A stretch of 64,000 bases of DNA from Flavobacteriales bacterium (GTDB taxonomy: Bacteria; Bacteroidota; Bacteroidia; Flavobacteriales; Flavobacteriaceae), in assembly GCA_038259585.1 (NCBI GenBank), contig JBBSOQ010000010.1, positions 30,678 to 94,677 of the forward strand, given 5' to 3'. The stretch's first letter is position 1. Each line of letters opens with the position of its first letter. The notes beneath the pieces are model-generated. The model was not told the origin of the DNA and did no database searches. It was given only the letters and a program-made list of their open reading frames with translations. Positions 16,782-41,937 of the stretch are shown piece after piece. Made by a program: the position numbers and the translations under genes.

Positions 16782-16795
16782 GTAACTAATGTTAC
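16782..16795. promoter_or_regulatory. GTAAC-TAAT-GTTAC box upstream of tolC-RND operon
   Basis: Perfect palindrome; centre 36.5 bp from - strand TATGTTTG (16752-16759). Confidence 0.8.
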
Positions 16796-18077: not shown

Positions 18078-18091
18078 GTAACAAAGATTAC
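18078..18091. promoter_or_regulatory. GTAAC-AAAG-ATTAC box upstream of DUF302-cytochrome b
   Basis: One mismatch; centre 36.5 bp from - strand TACATTTG (18048-18055). Confidence 0.75.
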
Positions 18092-18109
18092 ACAACTCGA
18101 TTTTCTTAT

Positions 18110-18337
18110 GAGTAATGAGAATTGAGAATTGAGAATTTATTTAGTCCTCAAAATGACTTTAATAAAGCATTCTTTCTTCTTTTTTTCTTTGTTCCAATCT
18201 ACTGAAAACTGAAAAGGCAACAGACAACTCACAACCAACACCTAATTAGCCCCGTGTTGATGAACAATTGTATCGCGTTCCTCGTTAGGTCGAGCCTTTG
18301 AATACATTGAGGATAAACTAAAGTCGAGACTTCGACT
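18110..18337. repeat. Degenerate heptamer tracts and a composite REP-like element
   Basis: (GAGAATT)3 at 18117-18137; GGTCGAGCC...AAGTCGAGACTTCGAC at 18288-18337. Confidence 0.45.
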
Positions 18338-22212: not shown

Positions 22213-22243
22213 TGTAATTTTGTCAGAACTAAAAGAAATCTAT

Positions 22244-22612
22244 ATGGAAGTAGCACATAAAAAGCGACTTATAAAATATAACGAAAAACTGTTTTCGTGT
22301 ACTACAAGCGTTGCAATGGAATTGATTGGCGGTAAATGGAAAAGTGTAATTTTAATCTATTTGGTAAATGGCAAAAAACGGTATAATGAACTCTATAAAC
22401 TTATAGCTACTATCACGGAACGCACTTTGAGTTTGCAATTAAAACAATTGGAGCAAGACGGATTAATAACTCGAAAAGTTTACACCAAAAAACCCCCATT
22501 AAAGGTTGAATATGCATTAACTCCTTTTGGTGAAAGCCTTACACCTGTATTACTATCCATTGCGGAATGGGGAAAGATTGTTGCTGAAGAAAAAGGCGAA
22601 ATTATAGAATAA
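22244..22612 (+). CDS. HxlR-family winged-helix regulator
   Basis: C...MELIGGKWK, TLSLQLKQLE, PLKVEYALT; ATG 22244 lies after the TAATTTTG box at 22215-22222. Confidence 0.9.
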   Translation: MEVAHKKRLIKYNEKLFSCTTSVAMELIGGKWKSVILIYLVNGKKRYNELYKLIATITERTLSLQLKQLEQDGLITRKVYTKKPPLKVEYALTPFGESLTPVLLSIAEWGKIVAEEKGEIIE

Positions 22613-24302: not shown

Positions 24303-27300
24303 TTAAAGCGTTAAAAAGTTGATAGCGATAACCGCTTGATTGTAATTATTTAGGTTTTCTAGATGCTGTAGTTCAATTTCATAAGCGTTTTCAAGACTTT
24401 GGATGTATTGAAAAAAGTCTATTTCGCCATTCTTAAAACTTCCGTTTGCAGTTTTTAAGATTTCTTCGGAAAGTGATTTCCCTTCCGTTTCATAATATTG
24501 CAGCGCTTCTTCATATTTTGAAACTTCGTTGAGCAATTGCACTTTTCTGGAATCTAAATGAATTTTATAATCTTCAGCTTGCTGTTGGCTAACATTTGCG
24601 GCAATTTTAGAGGCCTTTATTTTTGAAGCATTGCCGCTGAAAAGCAACGGAATTTTTAAACCCACTTGATAGGCATACAGATTTTGACTCAAACCTGAAT
24701 TGCTTCCCAAAGAATACGAAAGACTTATATCTGGCAGCAAATGTTGCTTTTCAAGATTTTGCTTTGCTTCAAAAAAATCATTTCTATTATTATAATATTC
24801 TATCGCTGGATGTGCTTCCATTCCCGGCAGCGAAAGTTGTAGTTTCTCCAAAGGCTGTTCAGAAATCACCAAACTATCCTTGGATTGCACAGCTGCTTTC
24901 AAGCGCTCTAGTGCAATATTTACATCTTCTTTGCTTTGTTTATAATCAGTTTCCAACTGACGTTGCTTGGCGCGAGCGGTTATTTTTTCTAGATAATTGG
25001 TTTCTCCAAGATCAAAACGACGTTGGGCGGCGTACGCAAAATTTTGATACAGACTATCCAAACTTTCGTAAACGCGTTCCCTGTTTTTCTCAAATTGAAA
25101 CTGATAATATGCTGCCGCAACCAAGCCTTCCGTTTTGCGTTTTTGAAGCTCGTATTGACTGCTTTGCATTTCAAACTGGCGCTGATTTACCTTTTTTTCA
25201 GCAAAATAAACTGTCGGGAAAAGAAAACCTTGCTGTACTCCAAAAACTTCGAGAGGTTCGTTGTTTGGTGCTAAGTTATTCTCGTCAAACTCATAAAAGA
25301 CAGTAGTTTTATCGAAGTTGAAAGCACTACCAATTAAAGCATTTGCTTCTTCTTTTTGAAGCGATGTTGCTTTTAAGCCTGCGTTATTTTCTAAAGCCAT
25401 TGTTTTTAAATCCTCTAAAGTTTTAGAGTTTTCCTGTGCTATTCCTGTAACTCCAAGTAACAATATGATGATGGTTAATGGCAAAGCCTTCTTCTTAGAT
25501 TTTCGAAGTTTTATTTTCTTTTTATCTGAATCAAAAATTGAAAATAGAACAGGTAAAACAACCAAGGTTAAAATCGTAGCCGTTACCAAACCACCAATAA
25601 CAACAGTTGCTAAAGGTCGTTGAACCTCAGCCCCAGCTCCAGTTGAGATTGCCATTGGTAAAAAGCCAAGTGCGGCGGCGGCGGCGGTAAGCAAAACAGC
25701 TCGCAAACGGTTTTTTGCACCCTTCACAATAAGTTCCTTTTTATCTGTCATTCCTTCTTTTTTAAGTTCTTTAAAATGTTCTATTAAAACAATTCCGTTT
25801 AGTACTGCAATCCCAAAAAGGGCAATAAATCCAACGCCAGCCGAAATGCTAAAAGGCATATCGCGCAGCCATAACAATAACACGCCACCCACTGCCGCCA
25901 ATGGAATTGCTGAATAAATCATAAGCGCCTCTTTCACGGAATTGAAAGCGAAATACAGCAAGAAGAAAATTAACACCAAGGCTACAGGAACGGCAAACAA
26001 CAACCTACTTTTTGCGCTTTGAAGGTTTTCAAACTGACCGCCATAATCAATTGTATAACTTACGGGAAGTTGAATATTCTCGTCTATTAATTTTTGAACA
26101 TCGTCCACAACGCTTTGCAGATCGCGACTTCTCACGTTTATTCCCACTACAATTCGGCGTTTGGTGTCATCTCTCGATATTTTCGCTGCGCCTTTTGTAT
26201 ATTTTATTTCAGCGAGTTCGCGTAACGGAACTTTTTCGCCAGATGGGGTGTCAACATAAAGGTTTTGTAGGTTTGAAAGATCGCGACGGTTGTTTTCATC
26301 CAAACGAACAACAAGGTCAAAACGTTTTTCTCCTTCAAAAATACTTCCCAAAGATTTACCTGCAAAACCCATTGCTATCATTTCATTCAAATCTTGAATA
26401 TTGAGTCCGTAGCGGGCAATTTTAGCTCGGTCAAACTTCACATTCATCTCTGGTAGCCCTACTACTTTTTCCACAGTAATATCATCGGCTCCTTCCACAT
26501 TTTCTACAAGGCTCTTTATTTCGTTTGCTTTTTTGTTTAGTATTTCAAGATCTTCCCCAAATATTTTGATAGCAATATCTGCCCGTACACCCGTTATAAG
26601 CTCGTTGAAGCGCATTTCAATAGGTTGGGTAAATTCTACTTCCATTCCTGGAATTATAGCCAAAGCTTCTTTGAATTTGTCGGCCAATTCATTTTTGTTC
26701 TTGGCAGAAACCCATTCGCTCTTTGGTTTAAGGGTAATTATAACATCACTTTCTTCCATAGACATAGGGTCTGTAGGCACTTCGGCAGCACCAATACGGC
26801 TTACTACTTGATCTACTTCAGGAAAGTTTTCTATCAGAATTTTTTCAATATGCGTAGTAATATCGATCGTATTGCTGAGGGAAGTACCTGTTTTCAGAAC
26901 TGGTTGAATTACAAAATCGCCCTCGTCCAATGTTGGAACAAACTCGCCACCCATAGTTGAAAAAAGATAAATTGTTGAAACTAGAATTAATACCGCAACA
27001 CCCAACACCACCCTTTTTGCGCTTAATGCCCAGCGAATTGTTGGTTCGTAAAAACGATTTAGGAAAGCCATAATTCTAACAGAAATATTCTTTTCTGAAG
27101 TTTCCGTTGGTTTTAAAAATAAGGAGGCGGCAACTGGAACGTATGTAAAACAAAGCACCATTGCCCCAATAAGTGCAAAACTGAATGTAAGCGCCATAGG
27201 CTTAAACATTTTTCCCTCTACCCCGCTAAGTGATAGAATTGGGATGAAAACAATTAAAATTATAAGCTGTCCAAAAATGGCAGAATTCATCATTTTTGAA

Positions 27301-28637
27301 GAACTCTTTACTGTAAGATTGTCTTTTGCCAATTGTTTTTCTTCAGAAGAAAGTGAGTTTAGTTTTATAGCATTCTTACTAATTTGAAATGCTACAAACT
27401 CAACAATAATTACCGCACCGTCAATAATAATTCCGAAGTCAATCGCACCAAGACTCATTAAATTTGCATCTACTCCGAAAATGTACATTAACGAAAGCGT
27501 GAAAAGTAGCGACAACGGAATTACGGATGCAACCACCAGCCCCGAACGAAGATTTCCTAGCAAAAGCACCACTACAAAAATCACTATGAGAACTCCAAGA
27601 ATTAGGTTTTCAGCAATAGTGAAAGTGGTTTTGCCTATAAGCACGCTGCGGTCCAAAACGGGGTTTATGTAAACTCCTTCGGGAAGTGATTCTGAAATAT
27701 TAGCTACACGTTCCTTAACAGCTTCAATCACTTGGTTTGAATTGCCGTCCTTGAGCATCATTACCTGTCCGAGTATTTTTTCTCCTTGTCCGTTTCCAGT
27801 AATAGCACCAAATCGTGGAGCGCTCCCGAATTGGACTTTCGCAATATCCTTCACATAAATAGGAAAGCCATTCTCGCTTTTCACAACGATATTTCCAATA
27901 TCTTTCAAGGAAGAAGCCAAACCTTCCCCGCGAATAAAATAAGCTTGATTTTCCCTTTCAATATACCCACCGCCAGAAACGCTATTGTTTTTCTCCAAAG
28001 CGGTAAATACCTCTTGGGCAGTAATATTCATAGCGTTTAGCTTGTTGGTATTAATGGCAACCTCATATTGTTTTAGTCTTCCACCCCAAGTGTTAACTTC
28101 AACTACGCCTGGAATTCCGGAGAGTTGTCGTTTTACTATCCAATCTTGAATAGTGCGAAGTTCTGTAATTGAATATTTATCCTCATATCCAGGTTTTACG
28201 TCTAAGATATATTGATAGATTTCGCCCAGACCTGTGGTTATTGGGCCCATTTGTGGCGTTCCAAAACCTTCAGGAATATTTTCAGAAGCTGATTGTATTT
28301 TTTCTGCAATGAGTTGTCTTGGTAAATAAGCACCCATATTTTCTTCAAATACGATGGTAACCACCGAAAGTCCAAATTTTGAAACGGAACGAATTTCCAT
28401 TACCCCAGGCAAATTGGCCATTTCCAGCTCCACTGGATAGGTTATAAATTGCTCCATATCCTGTGTGGAAAGGTTGCGAGAAGTGGTGATTACCTGAACT
28501 TGATTGTTTGTAACATCGGGCACGGCACCAATGGAAAGCTGTGTGAGCGAATACACACCAAAGCCTATAAGCACCAGCGTGAACAAACCTATGATTAGTT
28601 TATTCTTTATACTGAATTGAATTATTTTTGAGAGCAT
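24303..28637 (-). CDS. czcA: CzcA/CusA heavy-metal efflux RND with fused C-terminal TolC-like domain
   Basis: GAVPDVTNNQVQV, SLGAIDFGIIIDGAVII, FVPTLDEGD; about 400-aa OEP extension. Confidence 0.88.
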   Translation of the reverse strand: MLSKIIQFSIKNKLIIGLFTLVLIGFGVYSLTQLSIGAVPDVTNNQVQVITTSRNLSTQDMEQFITYPVELEMANLPGVMEIRSVSKFGLSVVTIVFEENMGAYLPRQLIAEKIQSASENIPEGFGTPQMGPITTGLGEIYQYILDVKPGYEDKYSITELRTIQDWIVKRQLSGIPGVVEVNTWGGRLKQYEVAINTNKLNAMNITAQEVFTALEKNNSVSGGGYIERENQAYFIRGEGLASSLKDIGNIVVKSENGFPIYVKDIAKVQFGSAPRFGAITGNGQGEKILGQVMMLKDGNSNQVIEAVKERVANISESLPEGVYINPVLDRSVLIGKTTFTIAENLILGVLIVIFVVVLLLGNLRSGLVVASVIPLSLLFTLSLMYIFGVDANLMSLGAIDFGIIIDGAVIIVEFVAFQISKNAIKLNSLSSEEKQLAKDNLTVKSSSKMMNSAIFGQLIILIVFIPILSLSGVEGKMFKPMALTFSFALIGAMVLCFTYVPVAASLFLKPTETSEKNISVRIMAFLNRFYEPTIRWALSAKRVVLGVAVLILVSTIYLFSTMGGEFVPTLDEGDFVIQPVLKTGTSLSNTIDITTHIEKILIENFPEVDQVVSRIGAAEVPTDPMSMEESDVIITLKPKSEWVSAKNKNELADKFKEALAIIPGMEVEFTQPIEMRFNELITGVRADIAIKIFGEDLEILNKKANEIKSLVENVEGADDITVEKVVGLPEMNVKFDRAKIARYGLNIQDLNEMIAMGFAGKSLGSIFEGEKRFDLVVRLDENNRRDLSNLQNLYVDTPSGEKVPLRELAEIKYTKGAAKISRDDTKRRIVVGINVRSRDLQSVVDDVQKLIDENIQLPVSYTIDYGGQFENLQSAKSRLLFAVPVALVLIFFLLYFAFNSVKEALMIYSAIPLAAVGGVLLLWLRDMPFSISAGVGFIALFGIAVLNGIVLIEHFKELKKEGMTDKKELIVKGAKNRLRAVLLTAAAAALGFLPMAISTGAGAEVQRPLATVVIGGLVTATILTLVVLPVLFSIFDSDKKKIKLRKSKKKALPLTIIILLLGVTGIAQENSKTLEDLKTMALENNAGLKATSLQKEEANALIGSAFNFDKTTVFYEFDENNLAPNNEPLEVFGVQQGFLFPTVYFAEKKVNQRQFEMQSSQYELQKRKTEGLVAAAYYQFQFEKNRERVYESLDSLYQNFAYAAQRRFDLGETNYLEKITARAKQRQLETDYKQSKEDVNIALERLKAAVQSKDSLVISEQPLEKLQLSLPGMEAHPAIEYYNNRNDFFEAKQNLEKQHLLPDISLSYSLGSNSGLSQNLYAYQVGLKIPLLFSGNASKIKASKIAANVSQQQAEDYKIHLDSRKVQLLNEVSKYEEALQYYETEGKSLSEEILKTANGSFKNGEIDFFQYIQSLENAYEIELQHLENLNNYNQAVIAINFLTL

Positions 28638-29383: not shown

Positions 29384-30841
29384 TTATTCAGGAATTAAAT
29401 ACCAAAATGGTTTCATTTTAGCTTTATATATAAAAGCATAGTGCAGCGCAAGTTTTAGCCAATGACCTGCCAAACCGATTTCGCCAAAAGTCTTGCTTAG
29501 CTTTCTTCCCATAGTGTCTGGGTATTTTATGTAATCAGGGACAATTGGGAACGTAGTTATGCTTATACCACTGCCTTTGGTCATTCCAAAACCTGCGGAA
29601 GCAATACAAGCAGCGCCCATATTGCCCATAGAACCTTTGTGGCGAAGTGATTCTTTATTATTTTTTATACTATCAATAATATTGTCTGCAACTAATTTTG
29701 CCGTAATACCCGAGGGCATTCCCGTTCTTGGCGGGGCAGGAAAGATTTCTGTTCCGTTCGGACTTTTACGGGGTTTAGAGATACTGTGTGGTGGCGCAAA
29801 AGCTATTCCCGGTGCAAAAATATTTTTATAATTCGGGTTTTGATAGGTCTCTGGCCAGTCTTGTACGGTCCATTCTTCATAGGGTTTGGGTGTATAATCT
29901 GCGTCAACTATCATAAAGCCTTTAAATAGTTTCTCGGTGATGTCTTGCTTGTTTTTATCGAAAGCTTTAAACCCGTGTCCCGAAAAGGAAGGGATAAGCA
30001 TCGCAAAATCATATTCAATGTTTTTGTGCTCCCCGTTCAGCGTTTCATAATGGGCAAGACCTTCTTCAATTTTAGTAACCCCTGCCCCAAGAATCCAATC
30101 TATGTCGCGATCTTCAAAAACCATCTCTACCATTTCATTGGATTTCATACTATTACTTCCATAGCTTAGCAGCATCCCGTCCATTCCGAAATCGCCCAGT
30201 TTATATTCATTGGAAATCCACGTAATTTTGGCTTTGTCACGAACTTTTTGTCTGCGAAGTTCTTGCTCAACATTTAAAATATATTCAAAAGCTGCGCCTT
30301 GGCAAGTTGCTTTTGCGTGGCCAGTGCCAATAACAATTCGTGCTTCCTTTCCCTGTTTCATTTCTTCAATTAAGGCTTGTAAACCTTGATAGGCGTGCTC
30401 TGCGTGCGTATAAGTACATACGGAATACGTTTTGTTAGTTCCGGGATTTAAACCTTCGGTAGCTTCAAAATTAAGTTTGGGACCCGTGGCATTTATAAGA
30501 TAATCGTACGTAATTTTTTCAGTTTCGCCTCTTTTTTCTTCGGAAACGTATTCAGCCATTACGAATGGTTTTTCTGTTTCATTATCGCCTTCGGGAAAAA
30601 AAGAAGTCACCTTGGCTTGTTTGAACCCGATACCTTTCTTTTTGTATAAAGGCGCCAACGGAAAAAGTATTTGCTTGGATTTCATTCGGCCAATGCCAAC
30701 CCAAATATTGGAAGGAATCCATTGATACTTACTGTTGGGCGAAACCACAACAACTTCGTGGGTTTTGTCTAGTTTTCTGCGAAGATGGGAAGCAGCTACA
30801 TGACCTGAAATTCCAGCACCTAATATTACAATTTTTGACAT
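29384..30841 (-). CDS. sqr: Sulfide:quinone oxidoreductase-like flavoprotein
   Basis: GAGISG FAD motif; Cys in SVCT, ATCQGAAFEY and ACIASAG; PRTGM motif. Confidence 0.75.
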   Translation of the reverse strand: MSKIVILGAGISGHVAASHLRRKLDKTHEVVVVSPNSKYQWIPSNIWVGIGRMKSKQILFPLAPLYKKKGIGFKQAKVTSFFPEGDNETEKPFVMAEYVSEEKRGETEKITYDYLINATGPKLNFEATEGLNPGTNKTYSVCTYTHAEHAYQGLQALIEEMKQGKEARIVIGTGHAKATCQGAAFEYILNVEQELRRQKVRDKAKITWISNEYKLGDFGMDGMLLSYGSNSMKSNEMVEMVFEDRDIDWILGAGVTKIEEGLAHYETLNGEHKNIEYDFAMLIPSFSGHGFKAFDKNKQDITEKLFKGFMIVDADYTPKPYEEWTVQDWPETYQNPNYKNIFAPGIAFAPPHSISKPRKSPNGTEIFPAPPRTGMPSGITAKLVADNIIDSIKNNKESLRHKGSMGNMGAACIASAGFGMTKGSGISITTFPIVPDYIKYPDTMGRKLSKTFGEIGLAGHWLKLALHYAFIYKAKMKPFWYLIPE

Positions 30842-30960: not shown

Positions 30961-30974
30961 GTAACTTTTGTTAC
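30961..30974. promoter_or_regulatory. GTAAC-TTTT-GTTAC box (distal sqr promoter)
   Basis: Perfect palindrome; centre 36.5 bp from - strand GATTTTTG (30931-30938). Confidence 0.75.
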
Positions 30975-31319: not shown

Positions 31320-32396
31320 TTAATGTTCTCCATAGCCCACATCGTCCATCTTGCCTTTAAAAACTCGGTACTGAATAAACATATAGACTGCAACTAGAAT
31401 TGCGGCAATAACAAACCAATATACACCCACTGACAATCCATATTCATGCGCTGCCACATTATAGAGCGTTAAGGAAGGATTTACATCATTGGTTGAAGGC
31501 AAAACCTTTGGAAATATGGAAGCCACCGTAGAAGTTAATCCGCCAAATAGAAATAAGGATGAAAACAAAAAGCCTAAACCATCCTTTTTAAAGGATTTTA
31601 CTTTAAACAATCCGAAAAGTCCCGAGAATGCAATAAGGGGGAAAACCCATAGCCAAGGATTTTCTATAAAATTATGAAATGGTTTTGGCTCAATAATATG
31701 CCAAAGCAATAAAGAACTTATTACCAAAGCCAACAGTACAAAATTTAAATTGAAAACAACTTTTTTAAGCTTTTGGTTTAAGTCTGAATTGGTTTTGAAG
31801 ATAATCCAATTTGCCCCGTGAATCGTCAACGCTACTACCCCAACAACCCCAAGTAACAACGTAAACCAATCAATAATTCCCAATTGCTCAGCGTGCGGAC
31901 TAAACGTGGAATTCCATAAGGGCAAAAAGAAATAATGGGGTTCCTGTGCAGAAACACCATTGGTAACCATTCCTAAATTTACACCTCTCACCACGTTTCC
32001 TAAAGCAATTCCGAAAAATAAGGCCAGTAATAAACTTGAAACTCCAAAGGCTTTATCCCAAATAGTTTCCCACATCTTGTTATGGATTTGACCACGTAAT
32101 TCTAAACCAATGGCCCTAAAAATAAGCAGCCATAAAATCATTATCAATGGCAAATAAAATCCACTAAAAGAAGACGCGTATAAAGTTGGAAACGCAAAAA
32201 ACAAAACACCCCCAACGGCTATTAACCATACCTCATTGGCATCCCAAAAAGGACCGATGGCGTTTGTAATTGCTTTCTTGTCCTTTTCAGTTTTGGCAAA
32301 GAACAAATGAATGATGCCAGCACCAAAGTCATAACCATCCAAAATCACATAAATGGTGAGCATTGTAATTAAAACGATATACCAGAATAATTCCAT
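31320..32396 (-). CDS. cydB: Cytochrome bd ubiquinol oxidase subunit II
   Basis: LDGYDFGAG, GPFWDANEVWL motifs. Confidence 0.96.
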   Translation of the reverse strand: MELFWYIVLITMLTIYVILDGYDFGAGIIHLFFAKTEKDKKAITNAIGPFWDANEVWLIAVGGVLFFAFPTLYASSFSGFYLPLIMILWLLIFRAIGLELRGQIHNKMWETIWDKAFGVSSLLLALFFGIALGNVVRGVNLGMVTNGVSAQEPHYFFLPLWNSTFSPHAEQLGIIDWFTLLLGVVGVVALTIHGANWIIFKTNSDLNQKLKKVVFNLNFVLLALVISSLLLWHIIEPKPFHNFIENPWLWVFPLIAFSGLFGLFKVKSFKKDGLGFLFSSLFLFGGLTSTVASIFPKVLPSTNDVNPSLTLYNVAAHEYGLSVGVYWFVIAAILVAVYMFIQYRVFKGKMDDVGYGEH

Positions 32397-32398
32397 AG

Positions 32399-33733
32399 TT
32401 AGATTTGTTTTGTGGTTTCAGGCCCTTTTTTAATGATTTTTCCAGCTAGCATTAAGAATAATAATCCTAATAATAGATACAGACCAATAAAACCAAGCAA
32501 GGTGAATAAAGTATTCCCAGAAGAAACTGTTGGTGAAATGCCATCAGCAGTTCGCAAAAGGTTATAAACCAACCAAGGTTGCCTGCCCAGTTCAGCAGTG
32601 TACCAACCAGTAGTGTTCGCTATATATGGAAATGGCAACATGAACATCAGAGACCATAAAATCCATTTGGTTTCATAGAGTTTCTTTCGAAACAATTGAA
32701 TACTTCCAATAAACATCAACCCAATAAAAATAGTGCCTAAACCAACCATAATGTGGTATGAATAATACAGTCCTGGAATATTAGTGGGGTACACACTTTC
32801 ATCAAATTCATTTAAACCCTTCACTTGGGCATCCCATCTTTGATAGGTTAAAAAACTCAACACATTTGGAACTGCTATTTTGTTGTCGAGCTTTTTATTT
32901 TCCGTATCTGGTTGCCCAATTAGAATAATTTCAGAACCTTCATCTTCTGTTTCAAAGATACCTTCCATAGCAGCAAAGGTTACAGGTTGATGTTCTACCA
33001 CATTTTTAGCAGCCCAATCTCCTGTGGGAAAAGCCACTAAGACACTCGAAATCAATCCGAAAATCACACCCGTTTTTACAAAAAGTTTTCCGAATTCACT
33101 GTGTTTATTGCCTAACAGATAGAATGCGCCAATGGCTGCCACAACAAAAGATGCTGTAATAACGGAAGCCAATTGATTGTGTAAATAAGAAGGAAGCAAC
33201 CAAGGATTGGAAAATAAAGCTCCAAAATTATTAAGGACAAACTTTCCGTTTTCCAAAATTTCATACCCTACCGGATGTTGCATCCACGAATGGGTAGCTA
33301 TAATTAAATACCCGCTAGCCCAAGACCCCAAAAACACTAGAAAACCTGTTAGAAAGTGTAACTTTTGTCCCATTAGCTTTTCACCAAAAAGGAATAACCC
33401 CAAAAACGAAGATTCAAGGAAGAAAGAAAACATCCCTTCCATTGCAAGAGTCTGACCTATAATACCTCCAGTAAGCTCTGAAAACTTTGCCCAATTGGTG
33501 CCAAATTGAAATTCCATAGGAATGCCGGTAACTACGCCCATTGCAAAGTTGAGCGCGAAAATCTTCATCCAGAATTTGGCAGCATCGTTGTATTTATAAA
33601 TCTTGGTTCTGAGAAATTTCCATTTAAAATAGACAATCATTAAAGATAGTCCCATGGTCAATTGCGGAAATAAATAGTGGAAAGTGATAGTAAACGCGAA
33701 TTGCATTCTATCATAAAAGAGCATGTCTTCCAT
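32399..33733 (-). CDS. cydA: Cytochrome bd ubiquinol oxidase subunit I
   Basis: FHYLFP, EFQFGTNW, AELGRQPW motifs. Confidence 0.96.
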   Translation of the reverse strand: MEDMLFYDRMQFAFTITFHYLFPQLTMGLSLMIVYFKWKFLRTKIYKYNDAAKFWMKIFALNFAMGVVTGIPMEFQFGTNWAKFSELTGGIIGQTLAMEGMFSFFLESSFLGLFLFGEKLMGQKLHFLTGFLVFLGSWASGYLIIATHSWMQHPVGYEILENGKFVLNNFGALFSNPWLLPSYLHNQLASVITASFVVAAIGAFYLLGNKHSEFGKLFVKTGVIFGLISSVLVAFPTGDWAAKNVVEHQPVTFAAMEGIFETEDEGSEIILIGQPDTENKKLDNKIAVPNVLSFLTYQRWDAQVKGLNEFDESVYPTNIPGLYYSYHIMVGLGTIFIGLMFIGSIQLFRKKLYETKWILWSLMFMLPFPYIANTTGWYTAELGRQPWLVYNLLRTADGISPTVSSGNTLFTLLGFIGLYLLLGLLFLMLAGKIIKKGPETTKQI

Positions 33734-33788: not shown

Positions 33789-33802
33789 GTAACATTAGTT
33801 GC
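33789..33802. promoter_or_regulatory. GTAAC-ATTA-GTTGC box upstream of cydA
   Basis: One mismatch; centre 36.5 bp from - strand TATTTTTG (33759-33766). Confidence 0.75.
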
Positions 33803-33976: not shown

Positions 33977-35320
33977 TTAATTTTTAAAGTCATTTACTTT
34001 TTCACTTAAATCAAAAACATTCACTTCGCTAATCATATTGTCTACAATACTGCTTCCAGAAGTGCTTCTATAGCCTCCGGCGCAATGCACAACGATTGGT
34101 TTGTTTGTAGGGATTTTGTCTTTAGAATCTCTCAATTCGTTAAGAGGGATATTTATTGCATTTTCAAAAAACTTACCTTCTGAAACTTCGCTTTTATTTC
34201 TAATGTCTATAATTGTGTATGCATCTTTATTCTTTTTGAAATTTTCAAAATCAAAGGATACAGATTTTTCTTTTGCTTTTTCAGAAAGAGTAACCATAGC
34301 GATGATTTGTGATTCATATCCTATTTTGGCAATCCTGTGCATTATTTCGTCTCTATCTTGAATTGAATTTATAGCAACATAAAATTTTTCATTGGGTTTA
34401 ACAATAGCCCCAAGCCAAGTTTCTACTTTATCATCTTCATTACGCGCCATAATATTTATACTGCCAGCAATGTGATTCTTTTTAAAAACTGCTTCATCTC
34501 TAACGTCTATAATCAAACTATTTTCTGGAAGGCTATCAACTCCAACTTTTAGGGATACATTTCCTATACTTTTTTCAAAGTTCTTCGCCCCCTCTTTATT
34601 AATATCTACATCAAATCCAAAATAGGCAGGAATAAAAGGTTGGTCGCTTAAAATGTTATTCACAAACTGTTCTTCAGTTTGTTTTTTGAAGGCCCAATTG
34701 CCAACACGTTCATTGCCCAAGGTGCTTGAAGAATCTGTACTCATATTCTTACCACACAATGAACCTGCTCCGTGGGCTGGATAAACCAATGTATCATCAG
34801 GCAAATGATTAAATTTAGTTTGAATAGTATTGTACATACTCTTAGCCAGCTTTTCACGAGTGGCTCTCATATTTCCTGCTTTTTCGCGTAAATCTGGTCT
34901 TCCAACATCGCCAATAAACAAGGTATCTCCAGAAAACATAGCATACTTTTCTTTTTCATCTTTGGCAATAATGGTGATCCCGTCTGGGGAATGTCCAGGA
35001 GTGTTAATTGCGAAAAGTGTTGTTTTACCCAAGCTAACTGTATTGCCATCGTCAAACGGCTGATGTGGATAATTTGCACCTACCAATTTGCTTACATATA
35101 TAGTGGCACCCGTTTCTTTATGTATTTGCAAATGACTGCTTACAAAATCGGCATGGGGATGTGTTTCAAAAACAGCTACAATTTTCGCATTGTTTTCTTC
35201 GGCATATTTATAATATTGGAAGGGGTTTCTGGCGGGATCTACTAAAGCCATTTTGCCATCACTAATAATAGCATAAGAGTAATGTGCCAATGGCTTATCT
35301 TGAAATTGTTTAATTGTCAT
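33977..35320 (-). CDS. MBL-fold persulfide dioxygenase fused to two rhodanese domains (CstB-like)
   Basis: ETHPHADF, TPGHSP, GDVGRPDL, YPAHGAGSLC; second rhodanese has HCAGGYRS, first lacks the Cys. Confidence 0.88.
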   Translation of the reverse strand: MTIKQFQDKPLAHYSYAIISDGKMALVDPARNPFQYYKYAEENNAKIVAVFETHPHADFVSSHLQIHKETGATIYVSKLVGANYPHQPFDDGNTVSLGKTTLFAINTPGHSPDGITIIAKDEKEKYAMFSGDTLFIGDVGRPDLREKAGNMRATREKLAKSMYNTIQTKFNHLPDDTLVYPAHGAGSLCGKNMSTDSSSTLGNERVGNWAFKKQTEEQFVNNILSDQPFIPAYFGFDVDINKEGAKNFEKSIGNVSLKVGVDSLPENSLIIDVRDEAVFKKNHIAGSINIMARNEDDKVETWLGAIVKPNEKFYVAINSIQDRDEIMHRIAKIGYESQIIAMVTLSEKAKEKSVSFDFENFKKNKDAYTIIDIRNKSEVSEGKFFENAINIPLNELRDSKDKIPTNKPIVVHCAGGYRSTSGSSIVDNMISEVNVFDLSEKVNDFKN

Positions 35321-35398: not shown

Positions 35399-36061
35399 TT
35401 ATATATTTTTCTTTGCCAAATACCAACTCACTTTTTCTAAAGAATCGTCTTTCAATCTGGCGTTAAGTTCATCTAAAGTTTTTGGAGGACCAACAATTAC
35501 TTTATCTCCTTTTTTCCAATCTAATGGCATTGCCACCTGATATTTATCTGAAGTTTGAAGGGCTTCCAAAGCGCGTAAAATTTCATCCATATTTCTACCC
35601 ACGTTTAATGGATAATACATTACCAATCGTATTTTCTTTTTATTGTCAATGAAAAATACGGCGCGTACGGCAGCTGTTTCACTTTCATTTGGCTGAAGCA
35701 TTCCATACAGTTTTGATACTTTCATATCAATATCTGCAATGATTGGGAAATCAAAATAAACACCTGTGGTTTCCCTTACATTTTGAACCCAGCCCAAATG
35801 TGCGTGAATACTGTCTATACTTAATCCTAAAAGTTCAGTATTTAAGGCATCAAACTCGCCTTTTCGTTTTGCAAAACCACTCATTTCGGTAGTGCAAACT
35901 GGCGTAAAATCTGCTGGATGTGAAAACATCACAATCCATTTGTCTTTTGCGAAGTCGGACATTTTTATTTTTCCTTTGGTTGTAACTGCTTCAAAATTTG
36001 GAGCGCTGTCACCTATTCTTGGCATTGCATTTACTTGTTGTACTTCTGAATTTATTTCCAT
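35399..36061 (-). CDS. 1-Cys peroxiredoxin (Prx6-like)
   Basis: HPADFTPVCTTEM motif; GRNMDEILR. Confidence 0.93.
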   Translation of the reverse strand: MEINSEVQQVNAMPRIGDSAPNFEAVTTKGKIKMSDFAKDKWIVMFSHPADFTPVCTTEMSGFAKRKGEFDALNTELLGLSIDSIHAHLGWVQNVRETTGVYFDFPIIADIDMKVSKLYGMLQPNESETAAVRAVFFIDNKKKIRLVMYYPLNVGRNMDEILRALEALQTSDKYQVAMPLDWKKGDKVIVGPPKTLDELNARLKDDSLEKVSWYLAKKNI

Positions 36062-36127: not shown

Positions 36128-36141
36128 GTAACATTAGTTAC
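36128..36141. promoter_or_regulatory. GTAAC-ATTA-GTTAC box upstream of the peroxiredoxin gene
   Basis: Perfect palindrome; centre 36.5 bp from - strand TAATTTTA (36098-36105). Confidence 0.78.
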
Positions 36142-36147: not shown

Positions 36148-36957
36148 TCATTTTACGATAAATTCCATATAAAAGATGAAGATGGCCATTATTAAAATAA
36201 AATAACCAAAGGATTTTTTTAACTTATTTCCATCTATGAAATTACCTAGATAGCTACCTATGAAAATTCCTAGTAGTGATATAGCTGTTATGGTCAATAG
36301 AAAATTCCAATCTATTTGTCTTACTAATGCATCTCCAAGAAAAAACCCAATTAATGAATTTAGCGCAATAATAATAAGGGAAGTCCCTACGGCTACCTTC
36401 ATTTCTACATTGGCTAAAATAACCAAAGCTGGTATAATTAAAAATCCACCACCTGCACCAATCAAACCAGTTACTGACCCTAAAATTAAGCCTTCAATAA
36501 GTATTAGGGGATAATTATATTTTACTTTTCCTGTAGTTTCTTTTACCAAACTCTTTTTACCGTTTAACATTGAAAAAGCCGCTGGAATCATTAAAAGCGC
36601 AAACAATCCAAACATACCCATTCTTCGAGTAATTTGAAATTGGCCTATCGTAAATAATACATCTGGCAAAGCAGGCACTACATAATGTCTTATTAGCGTA
36701 ACACCTATAATTGCTGGGAAACCAAATACAATTGCAGTCCGCAAGTTTACATAGCCTTTAAAGTATTGTTTTATTCCCCCAACTAGTGCGCTGGTTCCTA
36801 CAATAAATAAAGAATAAGCGGTTGCAGATTTTTCATCTACTGAAAATAAATATGCTAAAACAGGTACTGCTAAAATAGAACCTCCACCGCCAATGATACC
36901 CAAAGATAAACCTATGAATAATGCACTTATATATCCAAAGATTTCCAGTAATGCCAT
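36148..36957 (-). CDS. Sulfite exporter TauE/SafE (TSUP) family
   Basis: GIIGGGGSIL and GLIGAGGGFLIIP repeats, 8-TM pattern. Confidence 0.93.
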   Translation of the reverse strand: MALLEIFGYISALFIGLSLGIIGGGGSILAVPVLAYLFSVDEKSATAYSLFIVGTSALVGGIKQYFKGYVNLRTAIVFGFPAIIGVTLIRHYVVPALPDVLFTIGQFQITRRMGMFGLFALLMIPAAFSMLNGKKSLVKETTGKVKYNYPLILIEGLILGSVTGLIGAGGGFLIIPALVILANVEMKVAVGTSLIIIALNSLIGFFLGDALVRQIDWNFLLTITAISLLGIFIGSYLGNFIDGNKLKKSFGYFILIMAIFIFYMEFIVK

Positions 36958-37005: not shown

Positions 37006-37019
37006 GTAACATTGGTTAC
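37006..37019. promoter_or_regulatory. GTAAC-ATTG-GTTAC box upstream of the TSUP gene
   Basis: Perfect palindrome; centre 36.5 bp from - strand TATTTTTG (36976-36983). Confidence 0.8.
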
Positions 37020-38697: not shown

Positions 38698-38711
38698 GTA
38701 ACAAAAGTTAC
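38698..38711. promoter_or_regulatory. GTAAC-AAAA-GTTAC box upstream of the DUF3365-TPMT operon
   Basis: Perfect palindrome; centre 36.5 bp from - strand TATTTTTG (38668-38675). Confidence 0.8.
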
Positions 38712-38751: not shown

Positions 38752-39384
38752 TTAAAGTGAAATTATCTTAATGCTATTTCTATAAAGTTCTATTTTGCCC
38801 ATAGATTCCAGCTTTTTCAACAAGCGCGAAACCACAACCCGAGAGGTGTGCAATTCGTATGCAATTTCTTGGTGCGTTGAATTTATAGTATCGCTTTTAT
38901 TTACTTTTTGTTTATTCTGAAGATATTTAACCAAACGCTCATCCATATTCAAAAAAGCAATACTATCTATGGTTTCGAGCATTTCCGTGAGGCGTTCGTG
39001 ATAGCTTTGAAATACAAAATCGCGCCAGCTTTTATATTTTCCCGTCCATTCCTCCATTTTTTGAATAGGAATCATAATAAGCATGGTATCCATTTCTGCT
39101 ATCGCCCTGATTTCACTTTTGGTTTGACCCAAACAACATGTCATTGTCATGGCGCAAGTATCGCCGCGTTCCAAAAAATAGAGCAATAATTCATCGCCAT
39201 TATCATCTTCCCTTAAAATTTTTATTGCCCCAGAAATTAGCAGTGGCATGGACCGCACATAATCGCCAATTTCTATAAGTTTTTCACCTTCTTTCACTTC
39301 CTTTAAAGTTCCTACTTGATTGATTTCGTCAATAAGGGCATCTTCAAAAATTGCGGCGTAATTTTCTTTTAAATACGTAAGCAT
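38752..39384 (-). CDS. Crp/Fnr-family transcriptional regulator
   Basis: cNMP-like beta-barrel with TCAMTMTCC; HTH helix HTSRVVVSRLL. Confidence 0.93.
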   Translation of the reverse strand: MLTYLKENYAAIFEDALIDEINQVGTLKEVKEGEKLIEIGDYVRSMPLLISGAIKILREDDNGDELLLYFLERGDTCAMTMTCCLGQTKSEIRAIAEMDTMLIMIPIQKMEEWTGKYKSWRDFVFQSYHERLTEMLETIDSIAFLNMDERLVKYLQNKQKVNKSDTINSTHQEIAYELHTSRVVVSRLLKKLESMGKIELYRNSIKIISL

Positions 39385-39432
39385 GCAAAATTATTTAGGT
39401 GGATTTTGAATAGCTAAAATACGGCTTTAAAA

Positions 39433-40398
39433 TCACTTTTCTTTTGAGTCTTTCTTTTTCTGTTTTTCCAATTTTCTAAAATATCCGCGGAAAAAGAAGT
39501 TGTGTTGTAAGGCCTCCATATTTTGATTCAGTTTTTCAGACGCTTCTTTTATTTGAATCATTGTGGAATCCAACTCCTTTACAAAACTTTCATTCTGGGT
39601 GATATGATTGAGAGCTCCTTTTCCAGATTTTATTTCCCTTAAATAATCATCTAGATTTTTGGTAATTGCATTAATATCATCGCTGGATTTTTCTAGATTA
39701 CTAAAAACAGTTCTAATCTGAGTTGCGGTGGCAGTATCGCTCAAAATTACGGCCGCGGCACTTTCGTCATAATTTACTTTTGAAATAATAGTATTGATTT
39801 TACCCATAGCCAACCCTGCTCCTTCCGAGGTTTTCTTTAGTTCTAAAATTGTTTGGTAAATATTCTGCGCTAAAATTGTATCACTGATTAAGACCCCAAT
39901 AGTTCCTTTTCCTTCAAGAATTTGATGGGTAATTTTTAAAAGATCTGTACTTGTTTTATCTAATGTAGCGAGCATATCGTCCATCCCCACTTTACTGACG
40001 GATTGAATTACGTCTCCGGTAACAACACCCGCACCCTGCACATCATTTCCGGGAGTGATATTTACCACCATACTTCCAACCAAACCATCCGAACTGATAG
40101 AGGCCACAGCATCTTTTTTTATGAAATATGAAGCCTCTTCTTCCACCGTCATTTCAATAATAATCTTACCCACTTCTTTCATTTCTATGCCAGTTACCGT
40201 TCCCACATTAATGCCAGAGTAACGGACATTGTTTCCTAATTGTAGTCCGTTTACATTGTCAAAAACTGCATATACTTCTATATTTTTGGTGAAAATATGT
40301 TGTCGTGAGCCTATTAAATAAAGGGCGCCCACGAGAATAATAGTTCCTACGATCACAAAGATTCCAACTCTTATTTTTTGTGAATTTGATTTTCCCAT
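39433..40398 (-). CDS. MlaD/MCE family protein
   Basis: Start moved to MGKSNSQ; NGLQLGNNVRYSGINVG, SSDGLVG motifs. Confidence 0.88.
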   Translation of the reverse strand: MGKSNSQKIRVGIFVIVGTIILVGALYLIGSRQHIFTKNIEVYAVFDNVNGLQLGNNVRYSGINVGTVTGIEMKEVGKIIIEMTVEEEASYFIKKDAVASISSDGLVGSMVVNITPGNDVQGAGVVTGDVIQSVSKVGMDDMLATLDKTSTDLLKITHQILEGKGTIGVLISDTILAQNIYQTILELKKTSEGAGLAMGKINTIISKVNYDESAAAVILSDTATATQIRTVFSNLEKSSDDINAITKNLDDYLREIKSGKGALNHITQNESFVKELDSTMIQIKEASEKLNQNMEALQHNFFFRGYFRKLEKQKKKDSKEK

Positions 40399-40402
40399 AA
40401 AA

Positions 40403-41155
40403 TTAATTTTTAAAAAATGCTCTAGTTTGGGGATCATTCGAATTTGAAAGTTCCTCAAAAGTACCTTCGGCATAATTGGTTCCATCCACCAACAATATCA
40501 TCCGATCTGAAATAACCCGTGCACAATCTACGTCGTGCGTAATGATAAGAGAAGATGTGTTGTATTCTTTTTGAATGCTTCGCATAAGTTGAATAATTTC
40601 GTTTGCAGTAATAGGATCCAAACCTGTAGTTGGTTCATCATACATAATAATCTTCGGCTTTAAAATCAATGCCCGAGCTAATGCCACCCTGCGCTGCATT
40701 CCACCAGAAAGTTCCGAAGGCATCAAATCGATAGCATTTAAAAGCCCCACACTTTTGAGCGCTTCCTTTACCGATTGTTCAGTACTGTGGAAATCTTCTA
40801 GTTTATCCTTATGACGCCGAAGTGGAAATTCTAAATTTTCACGCACGGTCATAGAATCGTATAAGGCACTTCCCTGAAAAAGAAAACCGATTTCTGTACG
40901 TAAAAAATCCAATTCCTGCTGGCCCATAGTAATGATATCTTGATCTTTAATTGTGATACTTCCGCTATCTGGTTGAATCAAACCTACAATACACTTAACC
41001 ATTACAGATTTCCCCGAACCGGATTTCCCCATAATCACTAAGTTTTCCCCTTCATATAATTTCATACTAAATCCTTTGAGCACTTGGTTGTCGCCAAAAC
41101 TCTTTTTAATATTTTTCAGTTCAAGAACTGGTTTTTTATTTGTTTCAGAATTCAT
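40403..41155 (-). CDS. ABC transporter ATP-binding protein (MlaF-like)
   Basis: GKSGSGKS, LSGGMQRR, YDEPTTGLDP. Confidence 0.92.
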   Translation of the reverse strand: MNSETNKKPVLELKNIKKSFGDNQVLKGFSMKLYEGENLVIMGKSGSGKSVMVKCIVGLIQPDSGSITIKDQDIITMGQQELDFLRTEIGFLFQGSALYDSMTVRENLEFPLRRHKDKLEDFHSTEQSVKEALKSVGLLNAIDLMPSELSGGMQRRVALARALILKPKIIMYDEPTTGLDPITANEIIQLMRSIQKEYNTSSLIITHDVDCARVISDRMILLVDGTNYAEGTFEELSNSNDPQTRAFFKN

Positions 41156-41937
41156 TATGTAGTGAAAAATATATCGGTTACAAAAACGGCAATAAAGTCA
41201 ATTATAAACAGCAACATGGAGGCATAAACCACCGCCGAGTTTGATGCCTCTCCCACCCCAACGGTTCCAGTGGCGCAATTATATCCTTTGTAAGTACCCA
41301 CTAGGCCAATAGCAAAACCAAAGAAAAAAGTTTTGACGGTTGCGGGAAAAACGTCACTAAATTTCAAAGCGTCAAAAACTTGATTGAAATAAAGCGTGTA
41401 TGAAACACCTCCTTTTAAGTTTTCAATGATTGCAGAACCAATTAGAGCAACGGCATCGCCCAATATTACTAATAATGGCAACATAAGTGTTACCGCTAAA
41501 ATTCTAGTAACTACCAAATATTTAAAGGGATTGGTTCCCGAAACTTCCATCGCATCAATTTGTTCCGTCACTCTCATGGAACCTAGCTCGGCACCTATTC
41601 CTGAACCAATTCTTCCCGCACAGATTAAAGCGATAATTACAGGCCCTATTTCTCTAATTATGGAAAGACTAATCATTGAAGCCATCCAGGATTCCGCTCC
41701 AAATTGCATTAAGGTAGGCCGAGATTGAAGGGTAAAAACAAGACCTAATATAAAGCCCGTAACCACAACCAGAAATAATGAACGGTTTCCCATATTATAA
41801 CACTGCCTGAGCAATTCCCTAAACTCGAAAGGCCTGCTGAACAATTCCTTAAAAAAACGACTGGCAAATAAAGTCATATCGCCTATTTCGGTGAAAAACG
41901 ACTTTGCTCGGGTTATGATAGCGTTTGCTTTATTCAT
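41155..41937 (-). CDS. MlaE family ABC permease
   Basis: REIGPV, AGRIGSGIGAELGSMRVTEQIDA. Confidence 0.93.
   Translation of the reverse strand: MNKANAIITRAKSFFTEIGDMTLFASRFFKELFSRPFEFRELLRQCYNMGNRSLFLVVVTGFILGLVFTLQSRPTLMQFGAESWMASMISLSIIREIGPVIIALICAGRIGSGIGAELGSMRVTEQIDAMEVSGTNPFKYLVVTRILAVTLMLPLLVILGDAVALIGSAIIENLKGGVSYTLYFNQVFDALKFSDVFPATVKTFFFGFAIGLVGTYKGYNCATGTVGVGEASNSAVVYASMLLFIIDFIAVFVTDIFFTT

What the first reader, a model, noticed from the sequence alone, without database searches (positions are those of the whole stretch)
38752..39384. Candidate persulfide-sensing Crp/Fnr activator with an NtcA-like helix
Seen: helix HTSRVVVSRLL and a C-x5-CC cluster (TCAMTMTCC) in the effector barrel; the gene borders the regulon. 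Known: NtcA has STRVTVTRLL and binds GTA-N8-TAC, whereas CRP/FNR use E-x3-R for TGA. Inference: helix and motif match each other independently, and the Cys cluster could sense sulfane sulfur by persulfidation.
Basis: partly seen in the sequence, partly recalled or inferred. Interest (0 to 1): 0.68.

Follow-up and report, generated by a model that had tools for sequence, protein, structure and literature searches.

The report
Cysteine-pocket Crp regulator of sulfide detoxification
This Aequorivita gene encodes a Crp/Fnr-type switch that almost certainly turns on the seven neighbouring sulfide-detoxification promoters; its three pocket cysteines make it a candidate for an undescribed kind of reactive-sulfur sensor, but the sensing chemistry is untested.

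Summary
ORF 38752-39384 (-) encodes a 210-aa Crp/Fnr protein. Its only cysteines are C77, C83 and C84 (TCAMTMTCC), and its recognition helix is HTSRVVVSRLL.

- All seven good GTAAC-N4-GTTAC boxes in the 3.1-Mb genome lie in the 22-kb island beside the gene.
- Each box sits exactly 22 nt before a Bacteroidota -7 box, which is the class II activator position.
- In 80 Flavobacteriaceae ortholog loci the gene is followed by TauE and/or PDO-rhodanese genes, with 2.7 perfect boxes per locus on average.
- 115 of 222 boxes show the identical 22-nt spacing.
- Relatives with Glu instead of Val183 use mainly GTGAC half-sites.

The sensing part is plausible but unproven.
- C77 is nearly invariant across the family and C83 is kept in nearly all sulfur-linked clades.
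- C84 is lineage-specific.
- The cluster lies where CRP binds cAMP, and the cAMP-contact residues are not conserved.
- A haem-based mechanism remains a live rival, because the possible relative PgRsp binds haem.

No Crp/Fnr-type dedicated reactive-sulfur sensor was found in the literature searched. An August 2026 review lists only the CsoR, ArsR and Fis families.

The parts
38752..39384 (-). Crp/Fnr-family regulator gene, 210 aa (sensor beta-roll, dimerisation helix, HTH)
   Evidence: ORF. Pfam cNMP_binding and HTH_Crp_2 both above cut-off. AF2 model pLDDT 94.3 with the canonical Crp fold.
39133..39159 (-). Codons for T76-C84 (TCAMTMTCC): C77, C83 and C84, the protein's only cysteines, at the position of CRP's cAMP phosphate-binding cassette
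   Evidence: Read from the sequence. Aligns to CRP residues I70-E77. Conserved in 79 of 80 orthologs. C77 in 133, C83 in 71 and C84 in 78 of 137 family representatives.
38818..38850 (-). Codons for the recognition helix H179-L189 (HTSRVVVSRLL). R182, V183 and R187 correspond to CRP R180, E181 and R185.
   Evidence: Alignments to CRP and NtcA. R182, V183 and R187 are invariant in the V-type alignment A1.
38698..38711 (-). Box 1, GTAACAAAAGTTAC, 41 nt after the regulator's stop. Promoter of the Tll0287/cytochrome c gene and the TPMT-like methyltransferase gene.
   Evidence: perfect palindrome, TATTTTTG 22 nt downstream on the minus strand.
37006..37019 (-). Box 2, promoter of the TauE/SafE sulfite-exporter gene (36148-36957)
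   Evidence: Pfam TauE.
36128..36141 (-). Box 3, promoter of the 1-Cys peroxiredoxin gene (35399-36061) and the PDO-rhodanese gene (33977-35320)
   Evidence: Pfam.
33789..33802 (-). Box 4 (one mismatch, GTAACATTAGTTGC), promoter of cydAB (31320-33733)
   Evidence: TATTTTTG at 22 nt.
30961..30974 (-). Box 5, distal promoter of the SQR-like flavoprotein gene (29384-30841)
   Evidence: Pfam and NCBIfam.
18078..18091 (-). Box 6 (one mismatch), promoter of the DUF302 gene (17620-18009) and the cytochrome b561 gene (17040-17612)
16782..16795 (-). Box 7, promoter of the TolC-MFP-RND efflux operon (16733 down to about 10890)

Best explanation
The gene encodes the dedicated transcription activator of a 22-kb sulfide-detoxification island. 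The island holds SQR, PDO-rhodanese, TauE, a 1-Cys peroxiredoxin, sulfide-insensitive cytochrome bd, a Tll0287/cytochrome c protein, a TPMT-like methyltransferase, DUF302/cytochrome b561 and an RND pump. A dimer binds T-GTAAC-N4-GTTAC. This has the geometry of the CRP site TGTGA-N6-TCACA, with G changed to A because CRP Glu181 is Val183 here. The box overlaps the -33 region and lies exactly 22 nt before the -7 box TAnnTTTG, so its centre is at about -41.5 and it would recruit RNA polymerase as a class II activator. That the protein is the regulator of these boxes is shown by comparative evidence. Activation, as opposed to repression, is inferred from the geometry. The signal is most likely sulfane sulfur (persulfide or polysulfide) made from sulfide by SQR. 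C77, at the N-cap of the pocket helix, is proposed to be persulfidated and then bridged to C83 or C84 as a tri- or tetrasulfide. This would reshape the pocket where CRP binds cAMP and so switch the DNA-binding domains to the active state. This last step is inference only. My odds: regulator of the island 0.9; activator 0.8; sulfide or reactive sulfur as the signal 0.7; cysteine-based sensing 0.45.
For: In this genome:
- There are nine perfect palindromes. Five are intergenic and all five lie in the island; the other four are intragenic.
- With a -7 box required at 22 nt, the seven best sites in the whole genome are exactly the seven island promoters.
- No CsoR/CstR homolog exists in the genome, and no ArsR-type gene lies near the island.

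Across genomes:
- In 80 ortholog loci the gene is followed by TauE (48 loci) and/or PDO-rhodanese (55 loci).
- These loci plus the window hold 222 perfect boxes in about 1.49 Mb. The background in this genome is about 1.3 per Mb.
- 115 of the 222 boxes have TAnnTTTG exactly 22 nt away, and only one has it at 23 nt.
- The oriented consensus is T-GTAAC-nnnt-GTTAC-TG-N20-TAntTTTG.
- A box lies within 150 nt after the regulator's stop codon in 51 of 80 loci.
- Members at 39-52% identity in other families, and in one other class, are still beside TauE or PDO with boxes.

Helix and motif:
- At V-type loci 92% of half-sites are GTAAC. At E-type loci 67% are GTGA[CT], in the same register.
- NtcA shares the R-V-x-V-x-R helix.
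- HcpR2 regulators, with Pro at CRP position 181, were predicted to use GTAAC-N4-GTTAC (PMC1274295).

Sensor:
- The protein has only three cysteines, all in the pocket.
- C-x5-CC is present in 79 of 80 orthologs.
- C77 is present in 133 of 137 family representatives.
- C77 plus C83 are kept in all sulfur-linked clades of the family tree.
- The cAMP contacts E72, R82, T127 and S128 are M79, K89 (variable), M135 and L136 here.
- The regulon matches those of the known persulfide sensors CstR, BigR and SqrR, which control SQR, PDO, TauE and the switch to cytochrome bd (review PMC13467558).
Against:
- C84 is variable (A, T, S, N or M) in E-type relatives that are still beside sulfur genes.
- Members lacking C83 form one clade, so the link between C83 and sulfur context rests on about one to three independent events.
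- L130 lacks C83 and C84 yet sits beside TauE and PDO.
- A box overlapping the -33 region could also serve a repressor.
- PgRsp of P. gingivalis was modelled on the same closest structure, 3DV8, and has a Cys76-x-Met78 motif. It binds haem in vitro, and C76A did not change its spectra (PMC6955866).
Confidence: 0.5

Rival explanations
1. The protein is the same activator of the same regulon, but the sensor is a bound haem, possibly with C77 as thiolate ligand. Sulfide would bind or reduce the haem and trigger the switch, as CO does in CooA and NO does in HcpR and DNR.
For: PgRsp, a 207-aa Crp/Fnr protein of P. gingivalis, was modelled on 3DV8, which is also by far the closest solved relative of this family (profile E 9.5e-40). 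PgRsp is red as purified and binds haem in titrations (PMC6955866). CooA's haem ligands Cys75 and His77 lie in roughly the same pocket region; this mapping is from my own knowledge and was not computed here. C77 is nearly invariant in the family while C83 and C84 are not.
Against: No conserved His or Met exists in the sensor domain: M79 is present in only 60 of 137 representatives, and the only conserved His is H171 in the HTH. There is no N-terminal Pro or Ala ligand. The PgRsp C76A, M78A and H85A variants bound haem unchanged, so haem binding there may be non-specific. Membership of PgRsp in this family was not tested here.
Confidence: 0.2
2. The same activator senses a non-covalently bound small molecule in the pocket. 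Candidates are a sulfur oxyanion such as thiosulfate or sulfite, or a thiol metabolite held by the conserved Ser90 and the helix N-terminus. The cysteines would only line the pocket.
For: S90, which corresponds to the phosphate-contacting S83 of CRP, is present in 124 of 137 representatives, and R131 corresponds to CRP R123. Reversible ligand binding in this pocket is the norm for the family (cAMP in CRP, 2-oxoglutarate in NtcA). TauE, a sulfite exporter, is a very frequent neighbour (48 of 80 loci).
Against: The residue at the position of CRP R82 is not conserved (K, P, Q, R or E). The tight conservation of two to three cysteines in sulfur-linked clades is not explained. Known regulators of the same gene set all use thiol chemistry.
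Confidence: 0.15
3. The protein is a repressor that occludes the -33 region and is released by sulfide or reactive sulfur, as CstR, SqrR and BigR are.
For: The box overlaps the -33 position, and the TG following the palindrome lies where the -33 TTG is expected. All well-studied dedicated persulfide sensors except FisR are repressors.
Against: The spacing is invariant: 115 boxes at 22 nt against one at 23 nt. That is typical of stereospecific class II activation and is not required for occlusion. The promoters have a weak -33 element (cTG instead of TTG). Crp/Fnr proteins at -41.5 are activators as a rule.
Confidence: 0.1
4. The cysteines form a general thiol-disulfide redox switch that responds to oxidants or O2 rather than specifically to sulfane sulfur, like the FNR-like protein FLP of Lactobacillus casei.
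For: The regulon includes a peroxiredoxin and cytochrome bd. Thiol switches are known in the family (FLP and CprK, from my own knowledge).
Against: The core conserved targets are PDO-rhodanese and TauE, which are specific to persulfide and sulfite handling. No catalase, OxyR-type or thioredoxin targets appear among the seven promoters.
Confidence: 0.05

Closest known systems
NtcA (cyanobacterial global nitrogen regulator, Crp/Fnr family)
   Same: The recognition helix pattern R-V-x-V-x-R is shared (STRVTVTRLL against TSRVVVSRLL). The core motif GTA-N8-TAC and class II activation at -41.5 are shared. NtcA is the second-best PDB hit (E 4.4e-9 with the protein, 1.5e-20 with the profile).
   Different: The NtcA equivalog model scores 34.9 bits against a cut-off of 245. 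NtcA senses 2-oxoglutarate and works with PipX. It has no pocket cysteines and a nitrogen regulon. The box here is longer and stricter (T-GTAAC-N4-GTTAC).
HcpR2 branch of Crp/Fnr (predicted regulators of hcp in Bacteroides, Clostridium, Thermotogales and Treponema; Rodionov et al. 2005, PMC1274295)
   Same: The predicted DNA motif GTAACnnnnGTTAC is identical, and the Glu at CRP position 181 is lost in both.
   Different: HcpR2 has Pro at that position, whereas this protein has Val. The HcpR2 regulon is hcp and the signal is NO or nitrosative stress through haem. This genome has no hcp gene and the boxes are confined to sulfur genes.
CstR (CsoR family), SqrR/BigR (ArsR family) and FisR (sigma-54 activator): the known dedicated persulfide sensors
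   Same: The regulon content is the same: SQR, PDO-rhodanese fusion, TauE and rhodanese. The regulator is local and dedicated, encoded beside its targets. Conserved cysteines could form a polysulfide bridge.
   Different: The protein folds are unrelated. No CsoR homolog is in the genome and no ArsR-type gene is near the island. This protein is probably an activator at a class II site, whereas CstR, SqrR and BigR are repressors. The cysteine chemistry here is untested.
3DV8 (EUBREC_1222, Crp/Fnr regulator of Eubacterium rectale; structural-genomics entry) and PgRsp of Porphyromonas gingivalis (PMC6955866)
   Same: 3DV8 is by far the closest solved structure (profile E 9.5e-40) and shares the C-x5-C motif in the pocket. 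PgRsp was modelled on 3DV8, has Cys76-x-Met78 like C77-A-M79 here, and is described as a redox-sensing member of a new Crp/Fnr family.
   Different: 3DV8 has no known function and carries R-E in its helix. PgRsp is reported to bind haem and to affect oxidative-stress and virulence genes, with no link to sulfide genes.
E. coli CRP and FNR (class II activation)
   Same: The fold, the dimeric HTH, the site geometry (5-bp arms with 6 bp between TGTxA cores) and the activator position near -41.5 are shared.
   Different: The cAMP contacts are not conserved, and the CRP model scores 51 bits against a cut-off of 266. There is no N-terminal FNR cysteine cluster, and the FNR model scores 27.8 against 228.

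Membership tests
Crp/Fnr superfamily | N-terminal cNMP-binding-type beta-roll plus C-terminal Crp-type HTH, joined by a long dimerisation helix | tested here: met
   Pfam PF00027 scores 39.6 bits (cut-off 27.5) and PF13545 scores 36.9 (cut-off 27). The AF2 model has pLDDT 94.3 with helix 118-145. Foldseek top hits are all Crp/Fnr proteins.
CRP (cAMP receptor protein) | cAMP-contact residues E72, R82, S83, T127 and S128, and the equivalog score | tested here: not met
   E72 is M79, R82 is K89 (variable in the family), T127 and S128 are M135 and L136; only S83 (S90) and R123 (R131) are kept. NF008732 scores 51.4 bits against 266.
FNR ([4Fe-4S] O2 sensor) | N-terminal Cys cluster plus a fourth Cys near the dimer helix; E-x2-SR helix and TTGAT box | tested here: not met
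   The only cysteines are C77, C83 and C84. NF008365 scores 27.8 bits against 228. The boxes are GTAAC, not TTGAT.
NtcA | Equivalog-level similarity; 2-oxoglutarate sensing; GTA-N8-TAC box | tested here: not met
   TIGR03697 scores 34.9 bits against 244.95. The helix pattern and GTA..TAC core are shared. The 2-oxoglutarate contacts were not mapped.
HcpR2 | GTAAC-N4-GTTAC box upstream of hcp; co-occurrence with hcp; Pro at CRP position 181 | tested here: not met
   The motif is shared. However, there is no hcp (PF03063) in the genome, the residue is Val and not Pro, and all boxes lie at sulfur genes.
Dedicated persulfide (RSS) sensors, as a functional class | Regulator encoded beside, and controlling, SQR, PDO, rhodanese and TauE genes | tested here: met
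   Supported by comparative genomics only.
Dedicated persulfide (RSS) sensors, as a functional class | Conserved cysteine pair that forms a di-, tri- or tetrasulfide on exposure to sulfane sulfur and so changes DNA binding | not testable with these tools
   A conserved C77/C83 pair exists, but its reactivity needs mass spectrometry and EMSA.
Haem-based Crp/Fnr sensors (CooA, DNR, HcpR, PgRsp) | Bound haem with defined axial ligands (His or Cys plus an N-terminal Pro or Ala in CooA) | tested here: inconclusive
   There is no conserved His or Met in the sensor domain and no Pro2 or Ala2. C77 could act as a thiolate ligand. Haem binding itself cannot be tested in silico. CooA is only a weak profile hit (E 1.5e-8).

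The most novel reading that the evidence does not exclude
This Crp/Fnr subfamily would be a fourth structural class of dedicated reactive-sulfur sensors, after the CsoR, ArsR and Fis types, and the main sulfide sensor of Bacteroidota (found in 148 of 401 sampled genomes). Unlike the repressors CstR, SqrR and BigR, it would be a class II activator. A cysteine pair in the former cAMP pocket would be bridged by sulfane sulfur, so that a covalent polysulfide link takes the place of the nucleotide ligand as the allosteric trigger.
Probability: 0.4. Interest if true: 0.8.

Novelty: new variant of a known kind. Interest (0 to 1): 0.7.

Why it matters
Sulfide and persulfide sensing is well worked out in Firmicutes and Proteobacteria (CstR, SqrR/BigR, FisR). 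No dedicated sensor is described for Bacteroidota, a dominant phylum in marine particles, sediments and the sulfide-rich gut. If this family is that sensor, it gives a ready-made regulon map: a strict 14-bp box at a fixed promoter register. It would also show a new way of operating the classic CRP allosteric pocket, through covalent sulfur chemistry or haem, and it would provide an activator-type sulfide biosensor part. The prediction is directly testable with one knockout, one EMSA and one mass-spectrometry experiment. If the cysteines prove irrelevant, the finding shrinks to an ordinary local Crp/Fnr activator with an unknown ligand.

Tried and rejected
- **cAMP receptor** (some orthologs are annotated 'cAMP-binding protein'): rejected. 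Contact residues are not conserved and the equivalog score is far below the cut-off.
- **FNR-type Fe-S sensor:** rejected, because there is no N-terminal cysteine cluster.
- **HcpR2 or NO sensor:** rejected, because the genome has no hcp and no box lies outside the sulfur island.
- **Global regulator:** rejected. A genome-wide scan finds no credible site outside the 22-kb island.
- **Autoregulation in this genome:** no box within two mismatches lies upstream of the gene. Twelve of 80 orthologs do have an upstream box.
- **GTATTAAATTCTAC at 35329** (a GTA-N8-TAC match 9 nt before the PDO start): judged a chance match, with no GTAAC arms and no -7 box at 22 nt.
- **Paralogs in the own genome:** none found by tblastn at E of 1e-3 or better.
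- **Statistical link between C83 and sulfur context:** roughly 31 of 48 against 1 of 12 (my hand count from the rows). It was downgraded after the tree showed that the Cys83-less members form one clade.
- **Cys-Cys distances:** model coordinates are not exposed.

Full report
**1. Observation**

The ORF at 38752-39384 on the minus strand is intact and encodes 210 aa. It has a cNMP-binding-type beta-roll (residues 28-112) and a Crp-type HTH (149-208), both above Pfam cut-offs. TCAMTMTCC is residues 76-84 (nt 39133-39159) and HTSRVVVSRLL is residues 179-189 (nt 38818-38850). C77, C83 and C84 are the only cysteines in the protein.

An AlphaFold2 model built on a 43-sequence alignment is confident (pLDDT 94.3), and Foldseek finds only Crp/Fnr proteins. 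In the model C77 directly precedes a short helix spanning 78-86 that carries C83 and C84. That helix lies between strands 65-72 and 92-96. In the HMMER alignment to E. coli CRP these residues fall on I70, F76 and E77, inside the phosphate-binding cassette where CRP holds cAMP.

**2. Surroundings**

Downstream on the same strand lie the following genes:
- a Tll0287-like/cytochrome c protein
- a TPMT-like methyltransferase
- a TauE/SafE exporter
- a 1-Cys peroxiredoxin
- an MBL (persulfide dioxygenase)-rhodanese fusion
- cydAB
- an SQR-like flavoprotein
- further on, DUF302 plus cytochrome b561
- a TolC-MFP-RND operon

This is a sulfide and persulfide detoxification set, including the sulfide-insensitive oxidase. 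Earlier notes of this scan identify the genome as an Aequorivita, and the protein's closest homologs agree.

**3. The boxes and the regulon**

The genome (3.14 Mb) holds nine perfect copies of GTAAC-N4-GTTAC, against about 3.5 expected from base composition. Five are intergenic and all five lie in this island. The other four are inside coding regions elsewhere.

I then allowed up to two mismatches and required a Bacteroidota -7 box (TAnnTTTG, at most one mismatch) exactly 22 nt downstream. The seven best sites in the whole genome are then the seven island promoters, at window positions 16782, 18078, 30961, 33789, 36128, 37006 and 38698. The regulator is therefore local and dedicated, not global. 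No box precedes its own gene here.

**4. Comparative evidence that this protein reads these boxes**

- A scan of species-representative genomes returned 80 Flavobacteriaceae loci with orthologs at 65-91% identity.
- In these loci the gene is followed by TauE (48 of 80) and/or PDO-rhodanese (55 of 80). Tll0287, cydA, TPMT, Prx and TolC-RND recur less often.
- The loci carry 2.7 perfect boxes each on average. With the window, that is 222 boxes in about 1.49 Mb, roughly 100 times the background of the home genome.
- A box lies within 150 nt after the regulator's stop codon in 51 of 80 loci.
- 115 of the 222 boxes have a strict TAnnTTTG exactly 22 nt after the palindrome, and only one has it at 23 nt.
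- The oriented consensus is T-GTAAC-nnnt-GTTAC-TG-N20-TAntTTTG. The downstream arm therefore abuts a weak -33-like cTG.

From established knowledge of Bacteroidota promoters (-33 TTG, about 19 nt, -7 TAnnTTTG), this puts the palindrome centre near -41.5, the classic class II activator position. That step is an inference from recalled promoter knowledge, not from a mapped transcription start.

Homologs at E of 1e-15 or better occur in 148 of 401 sampled Bacteroidota genomes and 83 of 180 genera. Members at 39-52% identity in other families, and in one other class, are still beside TauE or PDO and still have boxes.

**5. Helix and motif**

The alignment to CRP gives R182, V183 and R187 as the counterparts of CRP R180, E181 and R185. 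NtcA has the same R-V-x-V-x-R pattern. T-GTAAC-N4-GTTAC-A has the geometry of CRP's TGTGA-N6-TCACA, with G changed to A at the base that Glu181 contacts in CRP.

The family offers a natural test. Among representatives of 50%-identity clusters, position 183 is Val in 45 and Glu in 87, and the tree shows several switches between them. At boxes in the fixed 22-nt register, V-type loci use GTAAC in 218 of 238 half-sites. E-type loci use GTGA[CT] in 16 of 24 (examples).

Independently, Rodionov et al. (PMC1274295) predicted GTAACnnnnGTTAC for HcpR2 regulators, which have Pro at CRP position 181.

**6. What it is not**

- It is not a cAMP receptor. E72, R82, T127 and S128 are not conserved, and the CRP equivalog scores 51 bits against a cut-off of 266.
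- It is not an FNR. It has no N-terminal cysteine cluster and scores 27.8 against 228.
- It is not an NtcA. It scores 34.9 against 245.
- It is not an HcpR2. The genome has no hcp gene, and the residue at CRP position 181 is Val, not Pro.
- The genome has no CsoR/CstR homolog, and its four ArsR-type hits lie on other contigs. None of the known dedicated persulfide sensors is therefore encoded at the island.

**7. The sensor**

In favour of thiol-based sensing of sulfane sulfur:
- The three cysteines are the only ones in the protein and line the ligand pocket.
- C-x5-CC is kept in 79 of 80 orthologs.
- C77 is present in 133 of 137 family representatives.
- C77 plus C83 are kept in every sulfur-linked clade, whether V- or E-type.
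- C77 sits at a helix N-terminus, a position that usually lowers thiol pKa (inference).
- The regulon is the one that CstR, SqrR, BigR and FisR control through cysteine pairs (review PMC13467558).

Against, or limiting:
- C84 is lineage-specific. It is A, T, S, N or M in many E-type members beside sulfur genes.
- The members lacking C83 form a single clade of 10 rows, nine of which are not sulfur-linked. The correlation therefore rests on very few independent events.
- One member of that clade (L130) is still next to TauE and PDO.
- The closest solved structure, 3DV8 (profile E 9.5e-40), shares the C-x5-C but has no known function.
- PgRsp of P. gingivalis was modelled on 3DV8 and carries Cys76-x-Met78. 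It is reported to bind haem, and C76A did not change the spectra (PMC6955866).

A haem-based sensor, or a reversible ligand held by the conserved S90 (CRP S83) and R131 (CRP R123), therefore cannot be excluded.

**8. Novelty**

Full-text searches found no report of a Crp/Fnr-type regulator of sulfide oxidation genes or of this box at sulfur genes. An August 2026 review lists only the CsoR, ArsR and Fis superfamilies as dedicated RSS sensors. Other agents of this scan reached the same reading on other genomes and on this island. Those notes are not independent evidence, but I re-derived their main claims here. One of them supplied the PgRsp lead.

**9. Verdict**

The regulator-regulon assignment and the fit between helix and motif are as strong as comparative genomics can make them. 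Activation is likely. Sulfide or sulfane sulfur as the signal is probable from the content of the regulon. Cysteine persulfidation or polysulfide bridging is the best single mechanistic guess, at about 45%, and it is untested. The finding is a new variant of a known kind: a Crp/Fnr fold put to a use not yet described.

Noticed in passing
window 24303-28637 (-): A 1444-aa protein joins a full AcrB-type RND transporter (Pfam ACR_tran, residues 5-1035) to a C-terminal outer-membrane efflux (OEP/TolC-type) domain (residues 1290-1443). This is an unusual single-chain fusion.
   Followed up: no
window about 16796-16835 and 18092-18131 (upstream of boxes 7 and 6 on the minus strand): Short tandem heptamer-like repeats lie directly upstream of two of the boxes: 'actactcactactcactactcactactcaatactcc' and 'caattctcaattctcattactcat'. 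They could be UP-like elements, sites for a second factor, or plain simple repeats.
   Followed up: no
genome contig C7:8273-9634 (outside the window): A second PDO-rhodanese paralog (34% identity to the island copy) has no GTAAC box nearby, so it is probably regulated differently.
   Followed up: partly
window 22220-22612 (+) and 20978-21985 (-): An HxlR-type regulator is transcribed divergently from a Zn-dependent alcohol dehydrogenase-like gene inside the island. It has no GTAAC box and appears to be an unrelated small module.
   Followed up: no
loci L004, L008, L013, L022, L023 and L080 (other genera): A second paralog at about 35% identity sits in the same sulfur cluster. It has Glu in the helix (SREVISR) and only Cys77. 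GTGAC-N4-GTCAC-type boxes lie next to it in L004 and L013. This suggests two related regulators with distinguishable boxes in one cluster.
   Followed up: partly
loci L157, L163 and L167 (another class of the phylum): Family members without Cys83 (CAA, CAG, CSG at positions 77, 83 and 84) are each next to a DUF302 gene rather than TauE or PDO. DUF302 is also a target in this window (box 6).
   Followed up: no
window 39386-39393: A TAATTTTG -7-like box on the minus strand ends one base before the regulator's ATG, too close to serve that start codon. The regulator may be co-transcribed with the upstream MlaD/ABC genes (39433-41937) or start from a promoter inside them.
   Followed up: no
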